Part shown: piece by piece, positions 1 to 13,925 of the stretch
Position numbering within the stretch: position 1 is the stretch's first letter
How the letters are laid out: each line of letters starts with the position of its first letter
Source of the DNA: Candidatus Woesearchaeota archaeon
GTDB taxonomy: Archaea; Nanobdellota; Nanobdellia; Woesearchaeales; ARS49
Assembly (NCBI GenBank): GCA_019322895.1
Contig: JAHWHZ010000003.1
Span: forward strand, 1 to 24,000
Direction: 5' to 3'
Length of the DNA: 24,000 nt
Notes under the pieces: generated by a model
Database searches by the model: none
What the model was told of the DNA's origin: nothing
The model's input: the letters and a program-made list of their open reading frames with translations, nothing else
Translations under genes and position numbers: made by a program

Positions 1-1
1 C

Positions 2-895
2 TTTATATGCTTCTGGAGATTCCTGCAATTAGACAAAAAAATTGAGTTCTTATGCAGTAAGGAAAGAAAGAAAAAAAGAGCTTTAAGCATCAAGAAAGAA
101 TATCACAGAACCACTGAAGAAGAAATTAAGAAAGTATTACAGCACTGTCAGAATTCCAGAGATGAAGCTTTAGTCATGCTCTTTTATGAAACTGGAGCAA
201 GAATAAGAGACTTATCAGGTTTGAAAATCAAAAACTTTGACTTCAGTAATGAAGGCGAGTTAAGAATCACAATACCGACCAGCAAAACTGAAAAAGGAGA
301 AAGAATAGTTCTGGCAATTCTTAGCGTTCCTTACGTGGCTAAATGGTTCAGCCAGCACCCAAACAGAACAGACAGAAACGACTTTGCATTTTTAGGCCTA
401 GGACAATCAAACCGGGGCAAACCATTAACTCACTCAGGAATCCAGACCATGCTTCGCAGGACATGGAGCAGGGCTAAAGTCCCATGGAGCCCGCCTCACG
501 GGCAAAGACACAACCGAGTCAGCATAGCATGCAAGCACATGACAGACAGGCAATTATGCCAATACTTTGGCTGGAGCGAAAAGAGCAACATGCCAGCCGT
601 GTACTCTAATCTTTATGGTAATGAAGCAGATGCAGGAGTGTACTCAATGCACGGTATAGAAAAAGACGAACACATACAAACCACCAGCCTAGTAAGCAAA
701 TTATGCCCTAGATGCGACACAACAAACGAAACCAGCCTAGAGTATTGCAAAAAGTGCGGGTGCGTTCTAGACCTGAAAAAAGCTATACAAATTCAGGAAG
801 AAAAAGAAAAATTGCAAGAGCAAAAAGTCATTAACCAAATAAACAAGCACTTGGCGAAAATTATTACTCCAGCAATTTTAAAGAAAAAAACCTAA
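2..895 (+). CDS. Tyrosine recombinase / integrase, 5'-partial (runs off the left edge), with C-terminal zinc ribbon
   Basis: Track ORF 176..895 is only the ATG-limited part; the same frame is open back to nt 2 (..TEEEIKKVLQHCQNSRDEALVMLFYETGARIRDL). It shows phage-integrase/Xer catalytic hallmarks: ETGARIRD (Arg box), HGQRHNRVS (H-x-x-R-H box) and GWSEKSNMPAVYSNLY (Tyr nucleophile region). A CPRC-x10-CKKC zinc ribbon and a Lys/Glu-rich tail follow. Confidence 0.8.
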   Translation, partial: FICFWRFLQLDKKIEFLCSKERKKKRALSIKKEYHRTTEEEIKKVLQHCQNSRDEALVMLFYETGARIRDLSGLKIKNFDFSNEGELRITIPTSKTEKGERIVLAILSVPYVAKWFSQHPNRTDRNDFAFLGLGQSNRGKPLTHSGIQTMLRRTWSRAKVPWSPPHGQRHNRVSIACKHMTDRQLCQYFGWSEKSNMPAVYSNLYGNEADAGVYSMHGIEKDEHIQTTSLVSKLCPRCDTTNETSLEYCKKCGCVLDLKKAIQIQEEKEKLQEQKVINQINKHLAKIITPAILKKKT

Positions 896-1377
896 ACTTT
901 TTTTTCTCCTTTTGTTTCTCTCCATAGCTTGATGGCTTGTTTCTCCTGACCACTCAAATCCGCTAAATGATTTATCATGTTATACAGATAAGGTCTGCTC
1001 TTTCCTAATCTGTTAGCGGCTAACTCAGGAGTGTACCCGCTTTTTGTTATGTATTCTTTGATTTTTGGTGCAATCTCTTCTTCTGCACAGCTGGTAGAGT
1101 TAAGACTAGCAATTAATTGGTATTCTAGTCTTTGCACATCGCTAAGATTCTCTTCGTAAATAATTGGGACTTTTTTTAATCCAATTATTTTTGATGCACG
1201 CCAACGTCTTTCACCGTCAATAATTGTGTTGTCCTTTTGTATAAGAATAGGAACAATCATCCCAACTTCTTTGATGGAGTTTGCCAATTCTTGCAATTCT
1301 TCTTTACCAAAACCTGTTTTTTTTCTTGGCTGGTTTTTATCAGGTTTTACTTTATTTATAGAAATAAATTCTTTCAT
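892..1377 (-). CDS. ParB/Srx-fold (ParB N-terminal domain) protein
   Basis: ISINKVKPDKNQPRK..ELQELANSIKEVGMIVPILIQKDNTIIDGERRWRASKIIGLKKVPII matches the classic ParB N-terminal boxes (P-x-x-QPR, L-x-x-SI, GERRWRA). Its stop overlaps the integrase stop (convergent genes). Confidence 0.8.
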   Translation of the reverse strand: MKEFISINKVKPDKNQPRKKTGFGKEELQELANSIKEVGMIVPILIQKDNTIIDGERRWRASKIIGLKKVPIIYEENLSDVQRLEYQLIASLNSTSCAEEEIAPKIKEYITKSGYTPELAANRLGKSRPYLYNMINHLADLSGQEKQAIKLWRETKGEKKV

Positions 1378-1389
1378 ATTTTTCCCTCC

Positions 1390-1674
1390 TTATCTTTTTT
1401 CATTGTTGAGTATGCCTGCGAGTTTTCCTTTTTTGACGAGAATTTTTTTGTCGTGCTTGAAACAATATTCTTCTAAGATTTTTATTGAGCAAGCTGGAGA
1501 ATTTTGTTGTGGCTCTAAAGGGGGGTGGTCACAAGAACCAGCTTGCTCTTGATTATGAAGTTCCTGCAGGGCATGGCATTGCGACCCTGCAGGTTTTCCA
1601 TTCGAGGTGAAATCGCATGGATTTTTAGCTAAGAAAGACTCAGCAGTGTTATGTAGTATTTGATTCTCTTGCAT
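1390..1674 (-). CDS. Hypothetical small Cys-containing protein (start moved to the internal Met MQENQIL)
   Basis: Track ORF 1390..1719. The first 15 codons overlap the better-supported AbrB-like ORF, so the internal ATG at 1674 is preferred. I recognise no family. The region is locally GC-richer and carries a 9-bp inverted repeat. Confidence 0.35.
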   Translation of the reverse strand: MQENQILHNTAESFLAKNPCDFTSNGKPAGSQCHALQELHNQEQAGSCDHPPLEPQQNSPACSIKILEEYCFKHDKKILVKKGKLAGILNNEKR

Positions 1675-1828
1675 TAGTATCACCAACTTTTTTTTCTTTA
1701 ACGATAAATTCGTACTCACTGAGTTCTAGAATTTTGTTTTCAACGTATGCTTTAGGTACGGTTATGACGAAAGAATCATTGTTTTTGCGTATTTTTGCTA
1801 CGAATGTGATTTGTTGCTCTATTGACAT
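1649..1828 (-). CDS. AbrB/SpoVT (MazE-like swapped-hairpin) family small DNA-binding protein, 59 aa; not on the ORF track (below its size cutoff)
   Basis: Hand translation of the minus strand from the ATG at 1828 gives MSIEQQITFVAKIRKNNDSFVITVPKAYVENKILELSEYEFIVKEKKVGDTNARESNTT*. The pattern (v)akirk-x-n-s-x-vitvPK-x-x-ve is typical of AbrB/SpoVT domains. It is the first gene of the minus-strand operon ending in ParB. Confidence 0.55.
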   Translation of the reverse strand: MSIEQQITFVAKIRKNNDSFVITVPKAYVENKILELSEYEFIVKEKKVGDTNARESNTT

Positions 1829-1860
1829 TTTTTTGTTACACCTTTCTTTTTTGCGAAAAC

Positions 1861-1868
1861 TTTATATA
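1861..1868 (+). promoter_or_regulatory. Archaeal TATA box (gaaaacTTTATATA) for the eS17-Alba unit
   Basis: TTTATATA preceded by an A-rich BRE-like stretch. The eS17 ATG at 1892 lies 24 nt after the box, consistent with a leaderless transcript. Boxes with similar spacing occur at 6485, 8439 and 9828. Confidence 0.5.
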
Positions 1869-1891
1869 TGCACGATGATTTTCCCTTTGTT

Positions 1892-2086
1892 ATGGGGAGA
1901 ATCAAGACCAAACTAATCAAGAGACTTACGTTTCAGCTAATGAAAGAGCATGGCAGTGAGTTCAAGGAAGATTTTAATGAAAACAAGCAATTAGTAGAGC
2001 AATTTCTATCAGGGCCAAGCAAGAAGATAAGAAATTGCATTGCAGGATATGTTACACGATTATTGAAACGAAAAGAAGAATACTAA
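1892..2086 (+). CDS. rps17e: Ribosomal protein eS17 (S17e)
   Basis: MGRIKTKLIKRLTFQLMKEHGSEFKEDFNENKQLV...SKKIRNCIAGYVTRLLKRK matches the eS17 N-terminus and the SKK(I/L)RN-x-IAGYVT motif. The track start at 1868 adds 8 residues that are unlikely to be real. Confidence 0.85.
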   Translation: MGRIKTKLIKRLTFQLMKEHGSEFKEDFNENKQLVEQFLSGPSKKIRNCIAGYVTRLLKRKEEY

Positions 2087-2106
2087 AAACAACGGGGGGA
2101 TGAGAA

Positions 2107-2388
2107 ATGGCAGATGATAACTCAATTTTTATTGGAGCAAAGCCATTTATGAACTATGTGACTGGGGTTGTGATGCAGTTCACGACAAAAGGAGCAGAGT
2201 CTGTGATTGTGAAGGCAAGAGGAAAATTTATTTCTCGGGCAGTGGACGTGGCAGAAGTAGCTTCAAAAAGATTTTTAGAAGGATCTGTTGGAGTGAAAGA
2301 CATAAGAATCGACTCAGAAGAGTTTGAAAACAAGGAAGGAAGACAGGTAAGAGTAAGCACTGTTGAAATCACTTTAGGAAAGAAATAA
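2107..2388 (+). CDS. albA: Alba (Sac10b family) chromatin/RNA-binding protein
   Basis: IFIGAKPFMNYVTGVVMQF..AESVIVKARGKFISRAVDVAEVASKRFL...GRQVRVSTVEITLGKK is collinear with Sso10b/Alba. A GGGGGGAT Shine-Dalgarno sits 7-13 nt upstream of the ATG. Confidence 0.9.
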   Translation: MADDNSIFIGAKPFMNYVTGVVMQFTTKGAESVIVKARGKFISRAVDVAEVASKRFLEGSVGVKDIRIDSEEFENKEGRQVRVSTVEITLGKK

Positions 2389-2426
2389 ATTTAATTTTTT
2401 CTTTTTTTAAAATAATAATAAAAAAA
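2389..2426. terminator. AT-rich convergent intergenic region with oligo-T tracts on both strands
   Basis: ttttttcttttttt on the + strand follows albA, and tttttttattattatttt on the - strand follows array gene P1. Oligo-T runs are the usual archaeal termination signal. Confidence 0.45.
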
Positions 2427-2930
2427 TTAATAAGATCTTATTGCGCTTGGTTCTTTGCAGCAGTATGCAAAGTTAGCTATCTGTTCTGGTGCTTTTACGC
2501 AGTTTTCAAGGCCTAAATCCCTTGCATGCTGTACAGATGCTCCTCTAGTGTATCCTGCTGGAATCGCGCCGATATTTGCCTGCCCGGTGCATGATGTCAA
2601 TACCTGGTGTATCTTTTTTTCTGGATCTCTTCCATATATGAATCCCTTGCTTACACCGATCTCTGCACCTTCATCTTGCCATCCGCCGAAGGTTCTGCTT
2701 GCTCCGCCGTATGGAGGGATTTGCGCTTCTGTTTTTACGCCGTATGATGCCGGGTTTTCAGTAACTTTGTTAATCTGTCTTGTGTATGGAAAAGGGCTTT
2801 TTGGATATACATAAATGCCTCCTCCTACAGTTGCTCCTGTTTTTGCTGTGGAAAACAGCATCACCAAAGCTACAATAGCCAGTATTATAACTACGCCTAA
2901 AACGCATAGTGTTATGTGTTTTTGTTCCAT
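2427..2930 (-). CDS. P1: small signal-anchored four-Cys protein, subtype B (array paralog, last in the operon)
   Basis: N-terminus MEQKHITLCVLGVVIILAIVALVMLFSTAKTGA; SPFPY motif; C-terminus SCTGQANIGAIPAGY...NCVKAPEQIANFAYCCKEP. GAGAGGT SD upstream. Confidence 0.8.
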   Translation of the reverse strand: MEQKHITLCVLGVVIILAIVALVMLFSTAKTGATVGGGIYVYPKSPFPYTRQINKVTENPASYGVKTEAQIPPYGGASRTFGGWQDEGAEIGVSKGFIYGRDPEKKIHQVLTSCTGQANIGAIPAGYTRGASVQHARDLGLENCVKAPEQIANFAYCCKEPSAIRSY

Positions 2931-2952
2931 TTTTTATCTAAACCTCTCTTGC

Positions 2953-3273
2953 TTATTTTGCATATCGTGAGCGCGGCGTTGTCCATTCTGAATAATCATT
3001 GAATGGAGGATATGGCGGGTAACCAAAATAGTCGCTTAATGGCACATCTTGCAATGTTCTTGATGCTCTTGGCTGTATGCCATAATATGCCGGTTGTTCT
3101 AGTGTGAATTCATACATTACTGGCGGATTATCATATACAAATACCGGATTTTCATAGAAATAAGCTACTTGCGCGCCAGTGAGCGCGTTTTTGAAAATCA
3201 AAACAAGTATGATGATTGCCAATACAGCTACGATTCCTAGAATGACGAGTGTTATGCTTTTTTTTTCTTCCAT
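2953..3273 (-). CDS. P2: array paralog lacking the Cys module (looks like a truncated subtype A)
   Basis: The preferred start is the internal MEEKKSITLVILGIVAVLAIIILVLIFKNALTGAQ; the track start at 3309 would overlap P3. No Cys residues. The C-terminus DYSEWTTPRSRYAK resembles the pre-Cys region DDYWSRKRAPE of P4. The ATG lies 1 nt after the P3 stop. Confidence 0.65.
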   Translation of the reverse strand: MEEKKSITLVILGIVAVLAIIILVLIFKNALTGAQVAYFYENPVFVYDNPPVMYEFTLEQPAYYGIQPRASRTLQDVPLSDYFGYPPYPPFNDYSEWTTPRSRYAK

Positions 3274-3274
3274 T

Positions 3275-3733
3275 TTAATAACCTTTTGTTGGCCTGCAGC
3301 AATATTCAAATTCTGCTCTTTCTAATTCTTTTGGCTTTTCAACGCAGTTTTCTGGAAAATACCTGTCTTCCATCTCCATATATGTTGCAGGTTCGCTGAA
3401 TCCTTCAGGAACATTTCCCAAAGGAATCTGTCCTGCGCAGCTTAAAAGCGCAGTATATGTCCTTCCAGGGTATCTTCTGCGAAACATGCCGTATTTGGTC
3501 TCTTCATATGCCTTGTCTGTTTTTGCTACTTTTGCTCCTTGAAAAGGCAGTACAGAGACTCCGCCTTTTACTGTCCTTTTCTCAGCATATGGATACCAAT
3601 TCAGCATCTCTTGCCCTGAATATGGCTTGTAACCATATTCTCCTGTAAAGCTTGTCTTGAAAAACAATACGAGCCCTATTGCCGCGAGTATTGCGACTAT
3701 TATTAAGACTAATAGGGCTGCTTTATTTTCCAT
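3275..3733 (-). CDS. P3: small signal-anchored four-Cys protein, subtype B
   Basis: MENKAALLVLIIVAILAAIGLVLFFKTSFTGE; NWYPY; SCAGQIPLGNVPEGF...NCVEKPKELERAEFEYCCRP. Confidence 0.8.
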   Translation of the reverse strand: MENKAALLVLIIVAILAAIGLVLFFKTSFTGEYGYKPYSGQEMLNWYPYAEKRTVKGGVSVLPFQGAKVAKTDKAYEETKYGMFRRRYPGRTYTALLSCAGQIPLGNVPEGFSEPATYMEMEDRYFPENCVEKPKELERAEFEYCCRPTKGY

Positions 3734-3737
3734 TCTT

Positions 3738-4154
3738 TTATGGGCTTGTTGGAGGCTTGCAGCAATTTCCGCGCAGTGAGTTTTCTACAACTATGCACTG
3801 CTCAGGTCCCCTGTTCCTGCTTTGCTGTATGTTTGCATCCCAGGTGAATCCTGCTGGCACAAGTCCAAGCCTTACTAACGCGTCACATCTTCCTTTTTGT
3901 GACCTGTACGTCAGTTCAGGGGCTCTTTTTCTGCTCCAGTAGTCATCTTCCCGGTAGTATGGGAATGGGGTTCCTTGCACATTGCCTCTTGCCACTGCTC
4001 CTGGATATTCCATTACTATTCCAGGATATGGCTGGTTAGCTCTTGCTGCTATTGTTGCTCCTGTACTTGCTGTCTTGAACAGCAGTACCAAGCCGATTAT
4101 TGCAAGCACTACAACTATGCCTAATGCAACTAGTGCGGTATGTTTGTCTTCCAT
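3738..4154 (-). CDS. P4: small signal-anchored four-Cys protein, subtype A
   Basis: MEDKHTALVALGIVVVLAIIGLVLLFKTASTGA; GTPFPYY; KGRCDALVRLGLVPAGFTWDANIQQ...QCIVVENSLRGNCCKPP. AGAGGA SD upstream. Confidence 0.8.
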   Translation of the reverse strand: MEDKHTALVALGIVVVLAIIGLVLLFKTASTGATIAARANQPYPGIVMEYPGAVARGNVQGTPFPYYREDDYWSRKRAPELTYRSQKGRCDALVRLGLVPAGFTWDANIQQSRNRGPEQCIVVENSLRGNCCKPPTSP

Positions 4155-4166
4155 TTTAGTTCCTCT

Positions 4167-4517
4167 TTAAGATAATGGCTGTGCTGCCAATGGTTTGTTT
4201 GGCAGGCAGCAGTATTCGATAGGTGCTATGTTTGCAGGTGCTTTAACACAGTAGCTTGCTCCGCGTGCTTTCATTGCATCTGTGGAGTATAGCCCCATTG
4301 TGAAGTCTTTTGGAACATTTCCAAGCCTGCCTTGTGTCTGGCAGTCATATACTTCTGCTGCAATAGGCTTCTGTATAGCTCCTCCTTGATACGGGGCCAC
4401 TATCCTTCCACCAGTTGCTTCTCCTGTCTGTCCTGCTTTGAAAAATAGCACAAGTCCGACAATTGCGATTATTGCAATAACGGTCAATATTACCAGTGCT
4501 GCATTTTTTTCATTCAT
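4167..4517 (-). CDS. P5: small signal-anchored four-Cys protein, subtype B
   Basis: MNEKNAALVILTVIAIIAIVGLVLFFKAGQTGE; DCQTQGRLGNVPKDF...YCVKAPANIAPIEYCCLP. AGGAGGA SD upstream. Confidence 0.8.
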   Translation of the reverse strand: MNEKNAALVILTVIAIIAIVGLVLFFKAGQTGEATGGRIVAPYQGGAIQKPIAAEVYDCQTQGRLGNVPKDFTMGLYSTDAMKARGASYCVKAPANIAPIEYCCLPNKPLAAQPLS

Positions 4518-4535
4518 TTTTATTCAATCCTCCTT

Positions 4536-4952
4536 TTATGATAATGTACAACAATATCCGTCTTGAGAGTCAGTGACTCTTATGCAGTCTCTTCCCATGC
4601 TCATATAATCCACGCTTTCTTGGTAGTTTGCATCCATAATATATCCTGCAGGGACTTTTGCTATCTCTGATGTTGCAAGTATTGCGCATCTTCCCATTTT
4701 AGCTCCATATGTGTGTTCAGGTGCTTTTCTCCAGTCCCAGTCTATCTGGCCTGTGCTTCTTTTCTGTGTGCCTGTGGTGTGCAGTGCATCTTCATAGTAT
4801 GGGAATGGATTTCCTTGTGTATTTGCATATGTCTTTGAGCCGGCATAAACAACATCTCCTGTTTTTGCTGCAGAAAATAGCATTACCATGCCGACAATGG
4901 CTATTACTACAATTACGCTTAGAATAACCAGTGCTGTATGTTTGTCTTCCAT
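4536..4952 (-). CDS. P6: small signal-anchored four-Cys protein, subtype A
   Basis: MEDKHTALVILSVIVVIAIVGMVMLFSAAKTGD; GNPFPYYEDALHT; QIDWDWRK; GRCAILATSEIAKVPAGYIMDANYQ...DCIRVTDSQDGYCC. Confidence 0.8.
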   Translation of the reverse strand: MEDKHTALVILSVIVVIAIVGMVMLFSAAKTGDVVYAGSKTYANTQGNPFPYYEDALHTTGTQKRSTGQIDWDWRKAPEHTYGAKMGRCAILATSEIAKVPAGYIMDANYQESVDYMSMGRDCIRVTDSQDGYCCTLS

Positions 4953-4982
4953 TTTTTCTTTACCTCTTTTGTTTTAAAACAA

Positions 4983-5393
4983 TTAAGGGCTTTCAGGCGG
5001 CACGCAGCAGAATCCTTTTAATGATTCTTCTACTTGAAGGCAGTCTTTGCCTCTGCTCTGCTGGTAATTCGCATCCCAGGTATATGCTTGCGGGACTATG
5101 CCCATTTCATATGTTGCAAGGATGCTGCATCTTCCTTTCAGAGCGCCGTACGTGCGGTCAGGCCTTCTTCTCCAGTCCCAGTCTATCTGCCCAAAATCTC
5201 TTTTTTGCACTCCTAATGTGTGCAAGGCATCCCTGTAATATGGGAAAGGATTGTCTTTATATTCTTGAGGATAAGATTGTTTTGCCACGAATCCTGCACC
5301 GGTCTTTGCAGAGTTGAACAACAGCAAAAGGCCGATTATTGCAAGTATTGCGATTACCGCCAGAATAACTAAGGTTGTTTCTTTTTCTTTCAC
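4983..5393 (-). CDS. P7: small signal-anchored four-Cys protein, subtype A (GTG start)
   Basis: (M)KEKETTLVILAVIAILAIIGLLLLFNSAKTGA; DNPFPYYRDALHT; QIDWDWRR; GRCSILATYEMGIVPQAYTWDANYQ...DCLQVEESLKGFCCVPP. Shares a 22-nt identical stretch with P6. Confidence 0.8.
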   Translation of the reverse strand: MKEKETTLVILAVIAILAIIGLLLLFNSAKTGAGFVAKQSYPQEYKDNPFPYYRDALHTLGVQKRDFGQIDWDWRRRPDRTYGALKGRCSILATYEMGIVPQAYTWDANYQQSRGKDCLQVEESLKGFCCVPPESP

Positions 5394-5408
5394 TTTTTAA
5401 CCTCTTTA

Positions 5409-5828
5409 TTAATATCTGTTTGGCAATGGTTTTGGCGGTACGCAGCAGTATTCAACAGGTGCTATGCTTGCAGGTGCTTTTGAGCAGTACATCTTTCCGC
5501 GTTTCATCATTTCTGCTTCAGACGTCACTTCAAAAGTCTGGTCCACTCTTACTTGTCCGCGTCCAGCAATCCTGTCGCATGCAAATGTGTCTGCGTATTT
5601 CATGCCTGTTCCTTCACTGCCTCCGCTGCTGAAATATTCCTGGTATGTTGGCGTTTCGAAAGGAACCGCGATGTTCTGTCCAGGTGATGGTGTCTGTAGC
5701 ACTCCTCCTGGATATATAGACCGTACCACTTCGCCAGACATTGCAGTCTTGAACAGCAGCACCAGTCCTACAACTGCTATCACTGCAACTATGCCTAGAA
5801 TAATTAAATTAAGTCCTTTTGTTTCCAT
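5409..5828 (-). CDS. P8: small signal-anchored four-Cys protein, subtype B
   Basis: The preferred ATG gives METKGLNLIILGIVAVIAVVGLVLLFKTAMSGE, with an AAGAGGT SD 8 nt upstream. The track uses a TTG at 5837. C-terminus ACDRIAGRGQVRV...YCSKAPASIAPVEYCCVPP. Confidence 0.8.
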   Translation of the reverse strand: METKGLNLIILGIVAVIAVVGLVLLFKTAMSGEVVRSIYPGGVLQTPSPGQNIAVPFETPTYQEYFSSGGSEGTGMKYADTFACDRIAGRGQVRVDQTFEVTSEAEMMKRGKMYCSKAPASIAPVEYCCVPPKPLPNRY

Positions 5829-5843
5829 CTTATACAACCTCTT

Positions 5844-6362
5844 TTAACTATATTCTGTTGAGCTTGGCGGCGTGCAGCAGAAAGGTATTCCTGTTCCTTC
5901 TGGTGCTTTTACACATTTCTTGTTGTATAGTCGTCCTTCTTTTGCATCTGTGTATGTTGCGCCCCAGGTGTGTGTTATTGGAACCACGCCAAGTCTTGCA
6001 AGTGCATTGCAGATTCCTTTTTGAGAGACATACGCGAGTTCAGGTTCTCTTCTCCTGTTCCAGTCCCTGTATACAAGGCCTTCTCCTGTGCCGTATACTT
6101 GTGTTCCTTCATCTACTGTAACTCCTGGGTCTTCTACTCCTAAATATCCGTCTGTAAAGTCTGGCTTTTCAGTTACTCCGCCCTTGTATGTTCCCTGCGC
6201 ATATGGCCAAGGATTCTCCTGTACATTTGAGTATGTGTACGAAGGTGGGAAAACACGTACAACGTCTCCTGTCATAACACTCTTGAACAGCAGCACTAAT
6301 CCGACAACTGCGATTACAGCTACTATTCCTAGAATAATCATACTTAACTCTTTTTTTTCCAT
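5844..6362 (-). CDS. P9: small signal-anchored four-Cys protein, subtype A (first gene of the array)
   Basis: MEKKELSMIILGIVAVIAVVGLVLLFKSVMTGD; ENPWPY; KGICNALARLGVVPITHTWGATY...KCVKAPEGTGIPFCCTPP. GAGGTGA SD (complement of 6370-6376). Confidence 0.8.
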   Translation of the reverse strand: MEKKELSMIILGIVAVIAVVGLVLLFKSVMTGDVVRVFPPSYTYSNVQENPWPYAQGTYKGGVTEKPDFTDGYLGVEDPGVTVDEGTQVYGTGEGLVYRDWNRRREPELAYVSQKGICNALARLGVVPITHTWGATYTDAKEGRLYNKKCVKAPEGTGIPFCCTPPSSTEYS

Positions 6363-6424
6363 TTCGGTTTCACCTCTAACTCTTTTAGAGTTTTACCTCG
6401 TTTTTTATTAAATTCTGCTTTTCT

Positions 6425-6434
6425 TATATATAAA
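6425..6434 (-). promoter_or_regulatory. TATA box (minus strand, gaaaagTTTATATATA) driving the nine-gene array
   Basis: The reverse complement of 6423-6441 reads cgaaaagtttatatataag, the same BRE/TATA consensus as the other promoters in the window. It lies about 65 nt upstream of the P9 ATG, implying a 5' UTR that contains the SD. Confidence 0.45.
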
Positions 6435-6484
6435 CTTTTCGAGTTTTTATAGGTAAATTCGCCACTGGACAAACCCGCAAAAGA

Positions 6485-6492
6485 TATTTAAA
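6485..6492 (+). promoter_or_regulatory. TATA box for the LAGLIDADG gene
   Basis: aagaTATTTAAAag; the ATG at 6516 is 24 nt downstream (leaderless spacing). Confidence 0.45.
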
Positions 6493-6515
6493 AGATAATA
6501 TGTTGTTTAATATGA

Positions 6516-7271
6516 ATGAGAATCACCCCCGAATTGGCAGAAATGGCAGGCATTCATGCAGGAGATGGGTATTTACGCTATGCTGGCCGCAGAAAAGAAA
6601 TAGATATTAGTGGAGGAGTAGATGAAAAAGAGTATTACGATACTCACGTCATTCCATTGTTCAATAATTTTTTTGGTTTGGATATCCAAGGCAGACTATT
6701 CTTAACTAGAAACACATATGGCTTTGTGATTAGAAATAAGAGGATCATACAAATATTCAAGAAATTGGGGTTTCCTTCGGGAAAGAAATCAACTATTGTT
6801 AAATGCCCCACAATTATTCAGAACAGCAGTGATTTTGGTATTTTGCGGCGTTTTATTAGGGGGTATTTTGATACAGACGGCTCGCTGACTTTTGATAAAA
6901 AGATTTTTTTGCAAGATGCATTCAAAAAAACAAAGAATTTTTATCCGCGTTTGATGTTTACTTGTGCATCCAGGAATTTAACAGAAGATTTTTTAAAGAT
7001 TGTCCACAAATTAGGTTTTAAAGCAACTTGTTCAGTGCATTGCCCAAAGAAGACGACAGAAAGCATAAGATATAAGATGCAGTTAGTAGGAGTTAAGAAT
7101 TTAAACAAGTGGATAAAAGAAATAGGGACTAAGAATCCAACAAAGTATTCAAGATATTTAATTTGGAAAAAATTTGGTTTCTGCCCGCCAAATACGACAT
7201 ACAAGCAAAGGATTAATATATTAAAAGGCAATCTTAACCCTCATTCACTTTATGTAGGGCCTGTAGTCTAA
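6516..7271 (+). CDS. Free-standing double-motif LAGLIDADG homing-endonuclease-family protein
   Basis: Two LAGLIDADG motifs: LAEMAGIHAGDGYL (N-terminal) and ILRRFIRGYFDTDGSL (about 100 aa later). This is the architecture of monomeric enzymes such as I-DmoI. It is not embedded in an intron or intein within this window. Confidence 0.85.
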   Translation: MRITPELAEMAGIHAGDGYLRYAGRRKEIDISGGVDEKEYYDTHVIPLFNNFFGLDIQGRLFLTRNTYGFVIRNKRIIQIFKKLGFPSGKKSTIVKCPTIIQNSSDFGILRRFIRGYFDTDGSLTFDKKIFLQDAFKKTKNFYPRLMFTCASRNLTEDFLKIVHKLGFKATCSVHCPKKTTESIRYKMQLVGVKNLNKWIKEIGTKNPTKYSRYLIWKKFGFCPPNTTYKQRINILKGNLNPHSLYVGPVV

Positions 7272-7347
7272 TGGATAGGACGCGCGGCTTCGGAAAGCTA
7301 AGTCTTTAAGAAACCGTGAAATCGGGGTTCGAATCCCTGCAGGCCCA
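7257..7347 (+). tRNA. tRNA-Arg (anticodon UCG) with a 19-nt intron at the canonical 37/38 position (7294-7312)
   Basis: Hand fold. Acceptor GGGCCTG/CAGGCCC. D arm GTCT-AATGGATA-GGAC. Anticodon stem CGCGG/CCGTG with loop CU-UCG-G[intron]A. T arm CGGGG-TTCGAAT-CCCTG. Discriminator A; no encoded CCA. The intron region folds as a bulge-helix-bulge-like motif: CTT/AAG helix, CGG and AAA 3-nt bulges, AAAG/CTTT inner helix. Confidence 0.8.
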
Positions 7348-7356
7348 CTTTTTAAC

Positions 7357-7575
7357 ATGGAAATCAACAATCAAATCGCTTTGACAGTAATCAAATGGGT
7401 AATTGTCATCTTTGTAGCAGGCATAATAGGGCAGTTTGGAAAGTCCCTCACCCTGCATATTCTTGACTGGTGGAAGAAAAGAAAAGCAAAGACTGTCAAG
7501 CCGTCTAAAAAACTTTCCAAGCTTGAAAAGAAGCGGCAGAAAGCAGAGATCAAGAGATTAAAGAAGGGGAAGTGA
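7357..7575 (+). CDS. Hypothetical small membrane protein with a Lys-rich tail
   Basis: One predicted TM helix (IKWVIVIFVAGIIGQF) followed by a highly basic tail (KKRKAKTVKPSKKLSKLEKKRQKAEIKRLKKGK). It starts 10 nt after tRNA-Arg. I recognise no family. Confidence 0.4.
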   Translation: MEINNQIALTVIKWVIVIFVAGIIGQFGKSLTLHILDWWKKRKAKTVKPSKKLSKLEKKRQKAEIKRLKKGK

Positions 7576-7580
7576 AAAAC

Positions 7581-7588
7581 TTTATAAA
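7581..7588 (+). promoter_or_regulatory. TATA box (gaaaaacTTTATAAAg) for the downstream tRNA
   Basis: Consensus box 28 nt upstream of GGGGCT at 7617. This fits that position being the 5' end of the RNA. Confidence 0.5.
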
Positions 7589-7616
7589 GAGAACGCGATA
7601 TCTTTATCTTACTCTA

Positions 7617-7766
7617 GGGGCTTTTTAAGCTCCCCAGCACGGGTTCCCTTTCAGGGACGTGAAGCTATGGGGTAGCTTGGACCATCCTTTCTGGTTTGGG
7701 TAAGCGAAGAACATCTGCTTCGCAGCAAAAAACCAGATGACCCCGGTTCAAATCCGGGTAGCCCCA
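7617..7766 (+). tRNA. Candidate tRNA-Pro (anticodon UGG) interrupted by two introns: about 44 nt in the 5' acceptor strand (about 7623-7666) and 31 nt at 37/38 (7701-7731)
   Basis: The 3' half is unambiguous: T arm CCCGG-TTCAAAT-CCGGG, acceptor 3' strand TAGCCCC, discriminator A. Anticodon stem TCTGG/CCAGA with loop UU-UGG-G[31 nt]A; G37 fits tRNA-Pro. The complementary 5' acceptor GGGGCT sits at 7617-7622, and the 7th base plus U8 (ATG...) resume at 7667. D arm GGGT-AGCTTGGACC-ATCC. Caveats: my fold leaves one extra U between the D and anticodon stems, and the intron-1 junction is ambiguous because GCT is repeated at both ends. Confidence 0.55.
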
Positions 7767-7773
7767 TATTTTT
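7757..7773 (+). repeat. Direct repeat copy 1 (GGTAGCCCCATATTTTT): the last 10 nt of the tRNA plus 7 nt of trailer
   Basis: Exact 17-nt match to 7865-7881. Confidence 0.9.
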
Positions 7774-7864
7774 TTCTTGCGAATATCAGAAATAATATTC
7801 ACTTCGCACGTGCAGCCCTGTGCTGCACATCTTTGGATCCTAGCCTTTTGTAAAGGCTAGCTGT

Positions 7865-7881
7865 GGTAGCCCCATATTTTT
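7865..7881 (+). repeat. Direct repeat copy 2 (GGTAGCCCCATATTTTT)
   Basis: Exact 17-nt match to 7757-7773. The 91-bp spacer contains strong hairpins: GTGCAGC-cctgt-GCTGCAC and CTAGCCTTT-tgt-AAAGGCTAG. Confidence 0.9.
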
Positions 7882-7898
7882 ACCCATTTTTTTAGAAT

Positions 7899-8390
7899 TC
7901 AATCACTAACATTATACTCTTTTTTTATTTGTTTGATTGTTCTCTCTAATGCAATATAATCTTTTTCTGTTTTGTCTATTGCTTGTTCTTGATAATTTGC
8001 TCTTGCTTCTTCAAAAAGCGTGTTAAGGCTTAGCCGCAGTGATTTAAATACATCTGTCCAGAATCTTTTTCTTTGCTCGTCAGAATGGCAGGGGCCGTCG
8101 CTTCCTGACTGGAACCAGTCTGGCCGGAGTATCATGACTTCTTCTTCATTAAATCCTAGTTTTTTTGCTTCTTCTGCAATTGCTTCTCTCTCATCCCAAT
8201 TGTCAAACAAATGCTCTCCATAATCATTGTCTAATATGAATAATCTTCCTATCCAGACAACAGGGTTTGACTCCCACAAGTCAAGCTTGTCTGCAATATC
8301 TTTGTATTTCTTTGTAACGACAAAAGCGTCAATGCTTTCTTGATACTGGAATATCTTGATATAAGTGCGGTCTGCCTTCATTATTTGCAT
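7899..8390 (-). CDS. Hypothetical protein (163 aa)
   Basis: Clean ORF with typical local codon usage; I recognise no motif. The start could be the second Met (8381), judging from the spacing to the shared AT-rich promoter region. Confidence 0.5.
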   Translation of the reverse strand: MQIMKADRTYIKIFQYQESIDAFVVTKKYKDIADKLDLWESNPVVWIGRLFILDNDYGEHLFDNWDEREAIAEEAKKLGFNEEEVMILRPDWFQSGSDGPCHSDEQRKRFWTDVFKSLRLSLNTLFEEARANYQEQAIDKTEKDYIALERTIKQIKKEYNVSD

Positions 8391-8467
8391 TAAATCTTTT
8401 AAAGTATTTATTTTTTGTGTTCAGAGATACAAAAAATATTTATACTCATAAGAGAAAATCAGCTTTC

Positions 8468-9820
8468 ATGGATGCGGGCATTGTATATTCAAATGTTTCT
8501 ATCGACATCAAAAATACTTATATGATATACATAGGGGCATTTAAGTATCATAAAATTTGCAGGTTTTTCAGGAAGCCTTTGAGAAACAGGTATGGCAGGA
8601 AGGTTGAAATAATCTATGTCTTTGGAAGCTTTCCTCCGTCTTATTTTGAAGGCAAATATGTTGTATTGAACAGCAGATTAAAAAAGCTGAAAAATAACAG
8701 CAGCAATTGTTATTTTGACATCGGCTCTAAGAAACTCAACAAAGAAGCATCTAATTGCGATTATGTTAAAAAATTAATAAGAAAAATCCTGAAAAACCAG
8801 AAAGACCTTTTTATTTATCCGTTTAAGGACACCCCTGAATTGAATTTGCAGAAGCAGTTTGAAAATGTTCATCTGCTGGGGCCGAAGACAAACTTGTTTG
8901 CAAAATACAACAGCAAGCTTTTTCAGCACGAGCTGGCAGACGTCCTTGACATCCCCCAGCCAAGATGGTTTCTGGTTCACAGCAAGGCAGACCTGATAAC
9001 GATTTATTCTGACCATTTGAAGGGAAAAAAAGCATTTGTTTCCAAGCTCGAGGGTGCAGGCGGAAGCGGAAGCGCAGTCATTAATTCCAAGAAGGACATC
9101 TTGGACCATCCGCACATAAAGAAAGAGAACTGCAGGTATCTTATTTCTGAATTGGTCGACGTAAAAGTTTCGCCGTCGAGCGAGGCTATTGTCGCCAACA
9201 AGAACGAGATTTTCTTTAACGGCATCATGGACCAGATAATGAAAGGCCCGGATTATCTGGGTACTATCTATCCGTCGATAGTTAATGATAAACTCAAGAA
9301 ACTGATTGAACAATATACGATAAGAATAGGAAAATATATTGGAGAGCACGGCTACAGGGGCTTTTTCGGTGTTGATTTTATCGTGGACAAAAAAAACAGG
9401 CTTTATTTTGCAGAGATTAATCCAAGGACCTGCGGAAGCACATTGGAAAAAGTGTACATGCATGAAGTGACCAAGAAAAAGAATTTTCCTTCAATTCCAG
9501 AGCTTGAATTCAGGGCAGTCACCAGAAATACTTTTGGTTCATTGTCTTCTAAAAAAGTGAAGAAAGCGAATTTCAGCTGGGGCATCTTTAATGTCAAGGC
9601 AAGAAAAGGAAGAATGACCACAAGAGATGTTTTGCCGGAGTTTTCAGAACCAGCAGCATTCAAGAAATTAAAGACAACTATTCTTGATTTTCCCGGCAAA
9701 AATGTATTGTTTTATCATTCCGGCAGGCTCTGCAAGATATTGAGCGTAAAGCCGACAAGAAAAGAGGTCGAAGAAGAGCTGAAAGCAAGAAAAAAACAAG
9801 TCATTGATTATATTAAATAA
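8468..9820 (+). CDS. ATP-grasp fold enzyme (carboxylate-amine ligase type), specificity unknown
   Basis: AFVSKLEGAGGSGSAVI (Gly-rich loop) and GYRGFFGVDFIVDKKNRLYFAEINPRTCGS (the ATP-grasp Mg/ATP motif, E-x-N-P-R). The start is set at the ATG at 8468 (MDAGIVY), 22 nt after the TATA-like TTTATACT at 8439-8446. The track uses a GTG at 8417 that would include the promoter. Confidence 0.7.
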   Translation: MDAGIVYSNVSIDIKNTYMIYIGAFKYHKICRFFRKPLRNRYGRKVEIIYVFGSFPPSYFEGKYVVLNSRLKKLKNNSSNCYFDIGSKKLNKEASNCDYVKKLIRKILKNQKDLFIYPFKDTPELNLQKQFENVHLLGPKTNLFAKYNSKLFQHELADVLDIPQPRWFLVHSKADLITIYSDHLKGKKAFVSKLEGAGGSGSAVINSKKDILDHPHIKKENCRYLISELVDVKVSPSSEAIVANKNEIFFNGIMDQIMKGPDYLGTIYPSIVNDKLKKLIEQYTIRIGKYIGEHGYRGFFGVDFIVDKKNRLYFAEINPRTCGSTLEKVYMHEVTKKKNFPSIPELEFRAVTRNTFGSLSSKKVKKANFSWGIFNVKARKGRMTTRDVLPEFSEPAAFKKLKTTILDFPGKNVLFYHSGRLCKILSVKPTRKEVEEELKARKKQVIDYIK

Positions 9821-9827
9821 AGAAAAG

Positions 9828-9835
9828 TTTATAAA
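9828..9835 (+). promoter_or_regulatory. TATA box (agaaaagTTTATAAAc) for proS
   Basis: Consensus box 24 nt upstream of the ATG at 9859 (leaderless spacing). Confidence 0.5.
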
Positions 9836-9858
9836 CAATAATCAAAACTGATTCTCTT

Positions 9859-11304: not shown

Positions 11305-11374
11305 TTACTCAATAGTAACAAATGTGCCATAAGCTTTATAAAGGATCGCTGATTTATCCTCTATAGGTGGATTT

Positions 11375-11860
11375 ATGATGATTAAGTTACCAAATACAGA
11401 ATTTCGCAGGTTATATTGGGAGAGCCTATTAGACTGTATTCAAGTTGTCGGCGAGCCAGAAGAAGCTATTGTTGTTGAACTTGAAAAAAAGCCTCTTGAA
11501 GATAATCTAGAAACAAATCTTGTTCTTAATGAAGACAATACTCTAGAAACAGTTCCTCATTATGCTCTTGATTCTTTTTATTTGAAAATCACGTCAGGCA
11601 AGACCGAATTTCATCCTTCGTATATGCTGGACGGAGAAAGAGAATATAATGACGATACAGCAAGATTTACATATTCCCAGGAAATATTTGCAGGACTTAA
11701 GCAGGAAATAAGTTCAAGATTATCAGACCTTTTGCAGGCTGCTAAAGAACTGAATTCAAAACTGTATCTGGACTCAAGCGAAGTCACAGAAGAGTTTATC
11801 GACAGGTTCATGAATTCAGAAGACGGATTGTGTTATATCAAAGAAAAAATTCTGGATTAA
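11375..11860 (+). CDS. Hypothetical acidic protein (161 aa)
   Basis: ORF preceded by the TATA TTTATAAA (11335-11342) and an AGGTGG at 11365-11370. I recognise no family. Confidence 0.5.
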   Translation: MMIKLPNTEFRRLYWESLLDCIQVVGEPEEAIVVELEKKPLEDNLETNLVLNEDNTLETVPHYALDSFYLKITSGKTEFHPSYMLDGEREYNDDTARFTYSQEIFAGLKQEISSRLSDLLQAAKELNSKLYLDSSEVTEEFIDRFMNSEDGLCYIKEKILD

Positions 11861-12606: not shown

Positions 12607-12691
12607 ACTGCTTGATTTTAGGTTTAAAGTTATTAAATCTTTTGCTTTATTAGAAAAATTTAAATAGCATTTATTTGTTCTATGCACTGGG

Positions 12692-12961: not shown

Positions 12962-12966
12962 TTTTT

Positions 12967-13874: not shown

Positions 13875-13925
13875 TAGTTATTGCAAAATTCTTCTTAATT
13901 GGGTTGAAAAAAGGGGGATAGTGTA

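What the first reader, a model, noticed from the sequence alone, without database searches (positions are those of the whole stretch)
2427..6362. Nine-gene tandem array of a small anchored four-Cys protein family I cannot assign to any family
Nine consecutive same-strand genes sit 1-30 nt apart. Eight have their own GAGGT/AGGAGG-type SD in the spacer; P2 starts 1 nt after the P3 stop. A single consensus TATA lies upstream of P9. They encode 106-172 aa proteins that share four elements. (i) A near-identical N-terminus M-E-x-K-x3-L-V-I-L-G-I-V-A-V-I-A-I-V-G-L-V-L-L-F-K, one hydrophobic helix of about 22 residues. (ii) An invariant [TS]-G-[ADE], with the [TS] four residues after the L/F-F dipeptide, in 9 of 9. 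(iii) An aromatic/proline motif (NPFPYY, PWPY, WYPY). (iv) In 8 of 9, a C-terminal module C-x5-8-[GA]-x-[VI]-P-x-[GA]-[FY]...C-[VILS]-x7-11-[YF]-C-C-x-P with exactly four Cys. That Cys count points to two disulfides and hence an extracytoplasmic location. The termini are conserved while the middles are highly divergent in sequence and length, which is the pattern expected of surface-exposed or secreted interaction proteins under diversifying pressure. About 3.9 kb of an apparently streamlined genome is spent on this one family. I recognise no named domain in it.
Basis: partly seen in the sequence, partly recalled or inferred. Interest (0 to 1): 0.85.

Follow-up and report, generated by a model that had tools for sequence, protein, structure and literature searches.

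The report
Woesearchaeal operon of anchored four-cysteine proteins
Nine neighbouring genes in an uncultured DPANN archaeon (Woesearchaeota) encode small proteins with one membrane helix and a four-cysteine end-knob; the set is real, matches no described family, and is an old, conserved operon rather than a fast-changing surface repertoire.

Summary
Nine minus-strand genes (2427-6362) lie 1-30 nt apart. One TATA box sits upstream and a T-run downstream. All nine encode proteins with the same N-terminal helix and F-x4-[TS]-G-[ADE]. Eight carry a C-terminal C...C...CC module. Pfam, NCBIfam, PDB (sequence and Foldseek) and BFVD gave no match.

The "diversifying selection" reading is not supported. 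The array sits at the same locus (next to Alba and S17e) in five other Woesearchaeota genomes, as 9-12 genes. Reciprocal best hits are collinear in the two closest. Against a relative at dS about 0.27, pooled dN/dS is 0.095. The "divergent middles" are well conserved among P1 orthologues.

New evidence favours an extracytoplasmic location. Cysteine counts after the helix are even in 199 of 200 family members (0, 2, 4 or 12). N-x-S/T sequons are about 15-fold depleted, yet enriched in the window's giant surface protein.

The helix family extends to distant Woesearchaeota arrays with pilin-like "KG" leaders. Only 2 of 67 proteins in this clade keep that motif, and no pilus machinery lies nearby.

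Best reading (confidence 0.45): uncleaved, signal-anchored, disulfide-knobbed envelope proteins that form a mixed surface assembly. Function is unknown. Interest is moderate.

The parts
6427..6434 (-). TATA-box consensus (TTTATATA) 65-72 nt upstream of the P9 start. It is the likely single promoter of the array. A second match lies at 6485-6492.
   Evidence: there are no TTTAWATA matches inside 2427-6362. Sequence read.
5844..6362 (-). P9 (gene 1 of the operon), 172 aa: helix, PWPY motif, long spacer, 4-Cys module.
   Evidence: Reciprocal-best orthologue is the first gene of the array in L001, L005, L006, L007 and L008 (47-54% identity outside the helix).
5409..5828 (-). P8, 139 aa (ATG at 5828): helix plus 4-Cys module. 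Its N-terminus is METKG-LNL.
4983..5393 (-). P7, 136 aa, GTG start: helix, NPFPYY, 4-Cys module. It is the closest paralogue of P6 (60% identity outside the helix).
4536..4952 (-). P6, 138 aa: helix, NPFPYY, 4-Cys module.
   Evidence: Reciprocal best hit to L007_g3 and L008_g3 (71-72%).
4167..4517 (-). P5, 116 aa: the shortest Cys-bearing member (helix, short linker, module).
3738..4154 (-). P4, 138 aa: helix, PFPYY, 4-Cys module.
   Evidence: Reciprocal best hit to gene 6 of L007 and L008.
3275..3733 (-). P3, 152 aa: helix, WYPY, 4-Cys module. It starts 4 nt after the P4 stop. It is the only window protein that fits the FlaFind pattern (KAALLV).
   Evidence: Reciprocal best hit to gene 8 of L007 and L008 (54-55%).
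2953..3273 (-). P2, 106 aa: a Cys-free member (helix plus Pro/Tyr-rich tail). It starts 1 nt after the P3 stop.
   Evidence: Cys-free short members are regular constituents of the other arrays (17 of 65 proteins).
2427..2930 (-). P1 (last gene), 167 aa: the most conserved member. It has the helix (with an extra Cys, C9), PFPYTRQINK..., and the 4-Cys module.
   Evidence: orthologue alignment, 60-92% identity; AF2: helix 2-31, module 105-160 at pLDDT about 80-86.
2400..2426 (-). T-rich run immediately after the P1 stop. It is the likely archaeal terminator of the operon.
   Evidence: Sequence (TAA followed by tttttttattattattttaaaaaaag).
7357..7575 (+). Conserved 72-aa gene (one membrane helix plus a Lys-rich tail), transcribed divergently from the array. 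It may be linked to the array; its function is unknown.
   Evidence: a near-identical protein lies directly upstream of the array, in divergent orientation, in L015, L007, L008, L001 and L005. No Pfam match.

Best explanation
The array is a single operon of nine ancient paralogues. They encode small one-helix envelope proteins and are confined to one clade of Candidatus Woesearchaeota (DPANN archaea).

Each protein has five parts:
- a 4-7-residue zwitterionic tail (M-E-x-K);
- a hydrophobic helix of about 20 residues;
- a K-x-A-x-[TS]-G helix end;
- a Pro/Tyr/Gly-rich spacer that is specific to each paralogue and conserved among its orthologues;
- in 8 of 9, an alpha/beta knob of about 55 residues held by two disulfides that tie the C-terminal CC to two earlier cysteines.

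The proposed mechanism has four steps. The proteins are inserted N-in/C-out. The helix is not removed and serves as a signal anchor. The subunits are made together from one transcript, and P4, P3 and P2 are translationally coupled. They then associate through the conserved face of their helices and through their ectodomains into a mixed-subunit cell-surface assembly. That assembly must stay free of N-glycans. Its most likely role is in envelope architecture or in contact with a host cell.

Shown here: the operon layout, family membership, synteny and collinear orthology, purifying selection, even Cys counts, sequon avoidance, and the absence of any known domain or fold.

Inferred: the topology, the disulfides, retention of the helix, hetero-oligomerisation, and the biological role.
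For: Operon. Spacers are 1-30 nt, seven carry an SD, there is one upstream TATA and a terminal T-run, and there is no internal TATA.

Old, ordered paralogues.
- The array (9-12 genes) lies next to Alba and S17e in L001, L005, L006, L007, L008 and L015.
- Reciprocal best hits between the window and L007/L008 run in the same order.
- Helix-profile hits occur only inside the arrays on all contigs examined.

Constraint.
- Pooled dN/dS is 0.095 at dS about 0.27. The helix region (0.105) is as constrained as the rest (0.091).
- Among paralogues, synonymous differences in the helix region are near saturation (pS 0.43-0.86). Its similarity is therefore kept by selection, not by gene conversion.
- The P1 middle region is highly conserved among orthologues.

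Helix as an interface. The most conserved positions (L11, A18, L22, F26, with G12 and G21) fall on one helical face. The 100-degree moment has a permutation P of 0.039.

Outside location.
- Cys counts after the helix are 0, 2, 4 or 12 in 135 of 135 database homologues. They are even in 64 of 65 array proteins.
- N-x-S/T sequons number 2 observed against about 30 expected over six arrays. The window has 0 against 3.4 expected (P=0.03).
- Cytoplasmic neighbours have 15 sequons against 12.8 expected. The window's giant FG-GAP surface protein has 42 against 19.8 expected.
- Homologues with the same module carry secretion-type 'KG' leaders.

Not cleaved. No -3/-1 small-residue pattern is shared at the helix end (sequences).
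Against: Flank charges do not favour N-in. The N flank averages 1.4 K/R and 1.7 D/E. The first 15 residues after the helix average 1.7 K/R and 0.65 D/E.

No topology or signal-peptide predictor was available. No expression or protein data exist. No disulfide-forming enzyme was seen in the loci.

AF2 gives only moderate confidence for the module (pLDDT 70-86) and none for the spacer. Hetero-oligomerisation was not modelled. The helical-face statistic is weak (P=0.039). Sequon counts in orthologues are not independent observations.

Many Woesearchaeota are thought to live in anoxic habitats, where extracellular disulfides would need a dedicated oxidation system (general knowledge; the habitat of this organism was not checked here).
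Confidence: 0.45

Rival explanations
1. Secreted small disulfide proteins. The conserved helix is a family-specific signal peptide removed at the K-x-A-x-[TS]-G site by signal peptidase I or by a dedicated peptidase. This releases nine soluble Cys-framework proteins (effectors, signals or matrix components). The parallel is with toxin and defensin families, which keep the signal and the Cys framework while the mature part diverges.
For: [TS]-G lies at a fixed distance after the helix in 62 of 64 members. Four of nine window proteins read T-G-A, a possible -3/-1 site. In four genomes of a sister lineage, the homologous arrays lie directly downstream of a Peptidase_A8 (signal peptidase II-like) gene. 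The layout is a conserved N-terminus, a variable middle and a fixed Cys framework.
Against: The hydrophobic stretch is 19-24 residues, which is anchor length. Five of nine window proteins have D or E where -1 would be, and -3 is K, M, Q, F or L if cleavage follows G. There is no lipobox Cys for an A8-type enzyme. The helix region is under the same constraint as the mature part (dN/dS 0.105 against 0.091), and its conservation has helical periodicity. No A8 gene lies in the loci of the window's own clade.
Confidence: 0.2
2. Pilin-like subunits. The array would be a major/minor-pilin-type gene cluster of a type IV filament (TFF) or a derivative of one. The shared helix would form the filament core and the disulfide knob the exposed surface.
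For: The architecture resembles pilin clusters: a conserved N-terminal hydrophobic helix, a C-terminal disulfide region, and at least five paralogues in a fixed order. This compares with archaeal T4P loci that hold five or more minor pilins and components with conserved cysteines (PMC4858521). Among database hits, 46 of 55 that share only the helix, and 8 of 81 that also carry the module, have the FlaFind class III pattern ('MAEEGKG|IALAILG...'). The invariant K4 of the window proteins aligns with the -2 Lys of that pattern.
Against: Only 2 of 67 array proteins fit the class III pattern. The -1 position is H, E, N, K or S instead of G or A. Within one distant array (L009), some members have KG and others do not. 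No secretion ATPase, platform protein or A24 peptidase lies within about 10 kb in any of 11 loci. No pilin or class III model in Pfam or NCBIfam matches. The helix profile hits only generic membrane helices in the PDB, and no pilins or archaellins. AF2 shows no pilin-like helix-on-sheet fold. Archaeal pilins are usually N-glycosylated (general knowledge), but these proteins avoid sequons.
Confidence: 0.12
3. Opposite topology (N-out/C-in). A short acidic N-tail is translocated and the C-terminal part stays cytoplasmic. The four cysteines bind a metal (Zn or Fe) rather than forming disulfides.
For: The flank after the helix is more positive than the N-tail (net about +1.0 against -0.25). The conserved E2 and D/E3 would favour translocation of the tail. 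Four invariant Cys could form a tetrahedral site.
Against: There are no CxxC or CxxH knuckles. Homologues with 2 or 12 Cys keep even numbers, and no Cys-to-His swaps were seen. Strong sequon avoidance would be pointless in the cytoplasm, and the cytoplasmic neighbours show none. Module-bearing relatives have secretion-type leaders. The spacers are Pro/Tyr/Gly-rich.
Confidence: 0.08
4. One reading: a repertoire of surface or secreted interaction proteins that is diversifying under an arms race.
For: The paralogues are only about 30% identical outside the helix. The proteins evolve faster than housekeeping neighbours (dN 0.17-0.62 against 0.045-0.10 versus L007). Gene number varies from 9 to 12 between genomes.
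Against: Per-gene dN/dS is 0.02-0.145 at unsaturated divergence. Orthologues are collinear and reciprocal-best across genomes. The middles are conserved within an orthologue group. The two nearly identical strains (window and L003) differ at only 5 sites across the whole array.
Confidence: 0.05

Closest known systems
[quoted passage not shown]
   Same: Both have a short charged N-tail followed by a conserved hydrophobic helix of about 20 residues, several paralogues in one locus in a fixed order, and conserved cysteines in the exposed part. More distant homologues of this family carry the [KR]-G leader.
   Different: The -1 Gly/Ala is missing in 65 of 67 array proteins. No ATPase, platform or A24 peptidase genes lie nearby. 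No pilin HMM or fold matches. A flexible Pro/Tyr spacer follows the helix instead of a globular domain packed on it. Sequons are avoided rather than used.
FlaF/FlaG of the archaellum (archaellin-like proteins; described from general knowledge as keeping their N-terminal helix as a membrane anchor)
   Same: This is a precedent for filament-subunit-like proteins that are not processed and work as membrane-anchored envelope components. That is how I think this family works.
   Different: There is no sequence or fold similarity. FlaF/FlaG are single-copy beta-sandwich proteins within archaellum operons. Here there are 9-12 paralogues with a small Cys knob and no motility genes.
Bacterial minor-pilin and pseudopilin operons (fimU-pilVWXE, gspGHIJK) (general knowledge)
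   Same: In both, tandem co-transcribed paralogues in a conserved order share an N-terminal helix and have divergent exposed parts. Type IVa pilins also have a C-terminal disulfide loop.
   Different: Those all keep the G(-1)/E(+5) processing signature and depend on nearby machinery. Neither is present here.
Cys-framework secreted peptide families (conotoxin superfamilies, defensins, plant cysteine-rich peptides) (general knowledge)
   Same: Both combine a conserved N-terminal hydrophobic leader, a variable middle and an invariant Cys framework that includes a vicinal CC. Both occur as tandem gene families.
   Different: Those evolve under positive selection with rapid turnover. This array is under purifying selection with collinear orthologues, and its helix is of anchor length and as constrained as the rest.
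Bacterial lipoproteins and signal peptidase II (Peptidase_A8)
   Same: Small residues ([TS]-G, G-A) lie just after the helix. An A8-family gene sits next to the homologous arrays in a sister lineage.
   Different: There is no lipobox cysteine at the helix end in any member. No A8 gene lies near the array in the window's clade.

Membership tests
Archaeal type IV pilin / class III signal peptide protein | [KR(DE)]-[GA] at -2/-1, directly before the hydrophobic stretch (FlaFind pattern [KRDE][GA][ALIFQMVED][ILMVTAS]x3) | tested here: not met
   The pattern is present in 2 of 67 array proteins; P3 is the only one in the window. It is met in 46 of 55 distant helix-only relatives.
Archaeal type IV pilin / class III signal peptide protein | Genomic association with TFF machinery (secretion ATPase, TadC/FlaJ platform, A24 prepilin peptidase) | tested here: not met
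   None of these appears among the Pfam-annotated genes within about 10 kb in 11 loci, or in the window. Whole genomes could not be searched.
Archaeal type IV pilin / class III signal peptide protein | Match to pilin, archaellin or class III signal HMMs, or to solved pilins | tested here: not met
   Pfam and NCBIfam gave nothing above noise. The best was Flp1_like at E=0.09, covering the helix only. The helix profile against the PDB hit only Ca-channel and alphavirus E1 membrane helices.
Archaeal type IV pilin / class III signal peptide protein | Pilin fold: a long N-terminal helix whose second half packs on a beta-sheet | tested here: inconclusive
   AF2 gives a helix at 2-31, then an unstructured stretch at 32-104, then a small alpha/beta module. 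Confidence is low in the middle, so this is not decisive.
Sec signal peptide cleaved by signal peptidase I | Small uncharged residues at -3 and -1 after a short (7-15 residue) hydrophobic core | tested here: not met
   The hydrophobic run is 19-24 residues. Only 4 of 9 read T-G-A. The others have D or E at the would-be -1, or K/M/Q/F/L at -3. No SignalP-type predictor was available.
Lipoprotein (signal peptidase II substrate) | Lipobox [LVI][ASTVI][GAS]-C at the end of the helix | tested here: not met
   No member has Cys at the helix end. The extra Cys of P1 (C9) lies at the start of the helix.
Zinc ribbon / zinc knuckle type Cys4 module | Two CxxC(H)-type knuckles; no dependence on Cys parity in homologues | tested here: not met
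   The spacing is C-x29-33-C-x10-14-CC. Homologues have 0, 2, 4 or 12 Cys and never an odd number. Metal binding itself cannot be tested here.
Any Pfam / NCBIfam / PDB / BFVD family | Significant sequence-profile or structure match | tested here: not met
Archaeosortase/PGF-CTERM-type or other C-terminally anchored surface proteins | C-terminal sorting motif plus a C-terminal hydrophobic helix | tested here: not met
   The C-termini are short and hydrophilic (...CCxPPxxx).

The most novel reading that the evidence does not exclude
The 9-12 collinear paralogues are the building blocks of a previously unseen Woesearchaeal surface organelle. In this reading, a mixed-subunit fibre, stalk or coat derives from pilin-like ancestors, has lost prepilin processing, and assembles without the usual type IV filament machinery. 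The cell would use it to attach to its host. The conserved divergent 72-aa Lys-tailed membrane protein (7357-7575) would be an assembly or regulatory partner.
Probability: 0.12. Interest if true: 0.8.

Novelty: new variant of a known kind. Interest (0 to 1): 0.5.

Why it matters
DPANN archaea have very small genomes and are thought to depend on contact with host cells, but the molecules of their surfaces are almost unknown. This operon takes up about 3.9 kb. It is kept in order at the same locus across related Woesearchaeota and is under purifying selection. Its signatures (even Cys counts, sequon avoidance) point to the cell surface.

That makes it a concrete candidate for an envelope or host-contact structure. 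It could be tested by metaproteomics, cryo-ET or heterologous expression.

It may also show pilin-like leaders giving way to uncleaved anchors within one protein family, if the KG leaders of distant relatives are true class III signals. That would bear on how filament subunits are re-used.

If it is only a lineage-specific set of membrane proteins, the result still corrects an attractive but wrong 'arms-race' reading.

Tried and rejected
- **An HMMER search of 1.84 billion representatives with the module alone found only 21 clusters.** One of them, P0124, is a 1780-aa repeat artefact and was rejected.
- **The viral origin was rejected.** There was no hit in viral contigs, and the array is syntenic next to Alba and S17e.
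- **Gene conversion as the cause of the shared helix was rejected.** Synonymous differences in the helix region are near saturation between paralogues.
- **L003 was useless for dN/dS.** The same population gave only 5 differences in the array, so L015 was used instead.
- **Comparisons with L007 and L001 have saturated dS.** They were used only for dN.
- **A8 peptidase processing was considered.** The adjacency is seen only in the sister lineage, and the proteins lack a lipobox Cys, so it is kept as a lead only.
- **Literature searches for any description of this family found nothing relevant.**
- **The sigma-70 promoter and hairpin-terminator scan is not informative for an archaeon.** Counts equalled the shuffles.
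- **The first genome scan with the broad alignment failed.** The scan with P1 orthologues found only 4 species-level genomes.

Full report
**1. The observation**

The window carries nine consecutive minus-strand ORFs between 2427 and 6362. With the obvious ATG/GTG starts they encode proteins of 172, 139, 136, 138, 116, 138, 152, 106 and 167 aa, in the order P9 to P1. The spacers are 15, 15, 30, 18, 12, 4, 1 and 22 nt.

Seven genes have a GAGG-type ribosome-binding site in the spacer. P3 and P2 follow their upstream genes after 4 and 1 nt, which suggests translational coupling.

The archaeal TATA consensus TTTAWATA occurs at 6427-6434 and 6485-6492 upstream of P9, and nowhere inside the array. 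A T-run follows the P1 stop. A single transcription unit is therefore the simplest reading.

The alignment confirms the shared features:
- the shared N-terminal helix;
- F-x4-[TS]-G-[ADE] in 9 of 9;
- aromatic/proline motifs;
- four invariant cysteines (C-x29-33-C-x10-14-CC) in 8 of 9.

P2 has no Cys. P1 has a fifth Cys inside the helix.

"Near-identical N-terminus" overstates the case. Mean pairwise identity over the first 34 residues is 52%.

**2. Source organism and surroundings**

The neighbours are archaeal: ribosomal protein S17e and Alba (Pfam), ProRS, an ATP-grasp protein and a LAGLIDADG ORF. From 13908 to the window end runs a giant ORF of at least 3364 aa with FG-GAP, LTD and Big_9 domains.

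All named homologues of the nine proteins come from Candidatus Woesearchaeota MAGs.

**3. No known family or fold**

None of the following gave a match:
- Pfam and NCBIfam: only sub-threshold hits on the hydrophobic helix.
- PDB, searched with a profile of the module: nothing.
- Foldseek against PDB and BFVD: nothing at E<=0.001.

The family is narrow. The module alone finds 21 clusters at 50% identity among 1.84 billion representatives. Exact-pattern scanning finds P1 orthologues in four species-level genomes. Viral contigs gave none.

**4. An old, ordered, conserved operon**

The same array sits between a ProRS-side region and the convergent Alba-S17e pair in six other contigs:

| Locus | Genes in array | Note |
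|---|---|---|
| L003 | 9 | Same population as the window |
| L015 | 9 | Intermediate relative |
| L007, L008 | 12 | |
| L001 | 12 | |
| L005, L006 | 11 | |

In five of the six loci that reach past S17e, a giant NosD/beta-helix protein, arginase and ArgRS follow, in that order. L003 ends within an unannotated gene of at least 681 aa at that position.

With the helix removed, reciprocal best hits between the window and L007/L008 run in the same order:

| Window gene | Best hit in L007/L008 |
|---|---|
| g1 | g1 |
| g4 | g3 |
| g5 | g2 (L007) / g5 (L008) |
| g6 | g6 |
| g7 | g8 |
| g8 | g9 |
| g9 | g12 |

Orthologues are far closer than the window's own paralogues. P1 is 70-78% and P9 47-54% identical to their orthologues, while the paralogues share about 30%. 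The exception is the P6/P7 pair, at 60%.

Short Cys-free members like P2 are regular constituents of the other arrays (17 of 65 proteins). A helix profile finds members only inside the arrays on every contig.

In P1 orthologues the "middle" (PFPYTRQINKV.ENPA.YGV...GGASRTFGG...) is more conserved than the helix.

**5. Selection**

Against L015 (dS about 0.27), per-gene dN/dS is 0.02-0.145 and the pooled value is 0.095. Six neighbouring genes give 0.055. The helix region (0.105) and the rest (0.091) are equally constrained.

Against L007, dS is saturated. There dN is 0.17-0.62 for the array and 0.045-0.10 for Alba, S17e and ProRS. The family therefore evolves faster than housekeeping genes but under purifying selection.

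Between paralogues, synonymous differences in the helix region are near saturation (pS 0.43-0.86). Its similarity is maintained at the protein level, not by gene conversion.

The "diversifying pressure" interpretation is therefore not supported.

**6. Location of the C-terminal part**

Flank charges are ambiguous or slightly favour C-in, so the Cys count alone did not settle the topology. Three further observations favour C-out.

- **Cysteine parity.** After the helix, Cys counts are 0, 2, 4 or 12 in 135 of 135 database homologues. They are even in 64 of 65 array proteins. This is the behaviour of disulfide pairs rather than of a metal site.
- **Sequon avoidance.** N-x-S/T sequons are almost absent. 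The six arrays hold 2 where shuffles predict about 30. The window holds 0 against 3.4 expected (P=0.03). Eleven neighbouring, mostly cytoplasmic ORFs show 15 against 12.8 expected. The giant surface ORF shows 42 against 19.8 +/- 4.2. Avoidance makes sense only if the proteins meet the external glycosylation machinery and must stay unglycosylated.
- **Secretion-type leaders in relatives.** Some module-bearing relatives carry leaders of the form MAEEGKG|IALAILG....

**7. Relation to pilin-like proteins**

The helix family is much wider than the module family. Among the 136 retrieved homologues, 46 of 55 that share only the helix fit the FlaFind class III pattern. Of the 81 that carry the module, 8 fit it.

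In a sister lineage (L009, L010, L016, L017) such proteins again form arrays of one to six genes, nearly all with four Cys (for L009 and L010). These arrays lie between a Peptidase_A8 (signal peptidase II-like) gene and glycogen synthase. L016 also has a PMT-type glycosyltransferase there.

In the window's clade, only 2 of 67 proteins keep the pattern. The invariant K4 aligns with the -2 Lys, but the -1 residue is H, E, N, K or S.

Four further results argue against pilin membership:
- No secretion ATPase, platform protein or A24 peptidase lies in any of the 11 loci.
- The helix profile hits only generic membrane helices in the PDB.
- No pilin HMM matches.
- The fold is not pilin-like.

I therefore do not file the family under type IV pilins. 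It may derive from such proteins and could work like uncleaved derivatives. FlaF and FlaG are a precedent (general knowledge).

**8. Mechanism proposed**

The proteins are inserted N-in/C-out and keep their helix, since no canonical -3/-1 or lipobox site is present. The most conserved helix positions (L11, A18, L22, F26, with G12 and G21) lie on one face (permutation P=0.039), which suggests helix-helix packing.

Three features point to non-redundant subunits of one assembly rather than to a variable repertoire: co-transcription and translational coupling, fixed gene order, and paralogue-specific conserved spacers.

A highly conserved 72-81-aa membrane protein with a Lys-rich tail is encoded divergently just upstream of the array. 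It is present in every locus whose upstream side is available. It may be a partner.

The biological role (envelope architecture or host contact) is inferred only from the DPANN lifestyle.

**9. Rivals**

| Reading | Confidence |
|---|---|
| Uncleaved anchored envelope assembly (main reading) | 0.45 |
| Cleaved, secreted Cys-framework proteins | 0.20 |
| True filament subunits | 0.12 |
| Inverted topology with a cytoplasmic metal site | 0.08 |

The evidence and refuting tests for each are given in the structured fields.

**10. Verdict**

The feature is real, and the family is uncharacterised and lineage-restricted. Its general kind resembles known systems: operon-encoded small envelope proteins with an N-terminal helix and a disulfide-stabilised exposed part, closest in architecture to pilin-like clusters. 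It fails their membership tests, so I rate it a new variant of a known kind.

Interest is moderate (0.5). It is a well-defined, testable candidate surface structure of an uncultured DPANN lineage.

Noticed in passing
window 1-1890 (ORFs 176-895 + and 892-1377 -): A truncated phage-type integrase and a ParB-like protein lie here. Related contigs carry a giant NosD/beta-helix gene at this position. The window and L003 are 99.95% identical from 1891 to 13738, and the similarity stops exactly at the S17e start. This is either a strain-level insertion or rearrangement, or an assembly join.
   Followed up: partly
window 6449-7346 (ORF 6516-7271 +; tRNA 7257-7347 +): A LAGLIDADG-type ORF overlaps by 15 nt the start of a 91-nt tRNA that probably contains an intron. 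ARAGORN could not name its anticodon; Rfam scored it at 55 bits. The whole segment of about 900 bp is absent from the related contig L015, which has no tRNA between the 72-aa gene and the array.
   Followed up: partly
window 13908-24000 (+), runs off the end: A giant ORF of at least 3364 aa has an N-terminal hydrophobic helix and FG-GAP, lamin-tail and Big_9 domains. It is twofold enriched in N-x-S/T sequons (42 against 19.8 expected). It is probably a glycosylated surface adhesin.
   Followed up: partly
window 7357-7575 (+); also L015:5990-6208, L007:4826-5050, L008:954-1199, L001:5271-5510, L005:5566-5940: A very conserved 72-81-aa protein (one membrane helix, then a Lys-rich tail ...KLSKLEKKRQKAEIKRLKKGK) is always encoded divergently just upstream of the array. 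It has no Pfam match.
   Followed up: partly
L009:4319-4768, L010:5814-6257, L016:5938-6396, L017:9445-9888: A bacterial-type signal peptidase II (Peptidase_A8) homologue lies directly upstream of the homologous small-protein arrays in four Woesearchaeota genomes of a sister lineage. It has the conserved N-x-G-x-x-F-G and F-N-V-A-D motifs. In L016 a PMT-family glycosyltransferase lies between the two. These proteins have no lipobox Cys, so the substrates of this peptidase are unclear.
   Followed up: partly
L001, L005, L006, L007, L008, L015: downstream of S17e: One or two giant NosD/beta-helix proteins (1273-2162 aa; one with a Laminin_G_3 domain) are conserved just beyond Alba and S17e. Two classes of putative surface proteins therefore flank this pair of housekeeping genes.
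   Followed up: no
window 2904-2906 (Cys9 of P1); L001_g7-g9, L005_g7/g8, L006_g7/g8: Some paralogue groups carry a conserved single Cys inside the membrane helix (…ALCILG…). It lies outside the four-Cys module. Its role is unknown.
   Followed up: no
window 8417-9820 (+): An ATP-grasp family protein (450-467 aa) lies next to ProRS in the window, L003 and L015, but not at this position in the other related loci. Its substrate is unknown.
   Followed up: no
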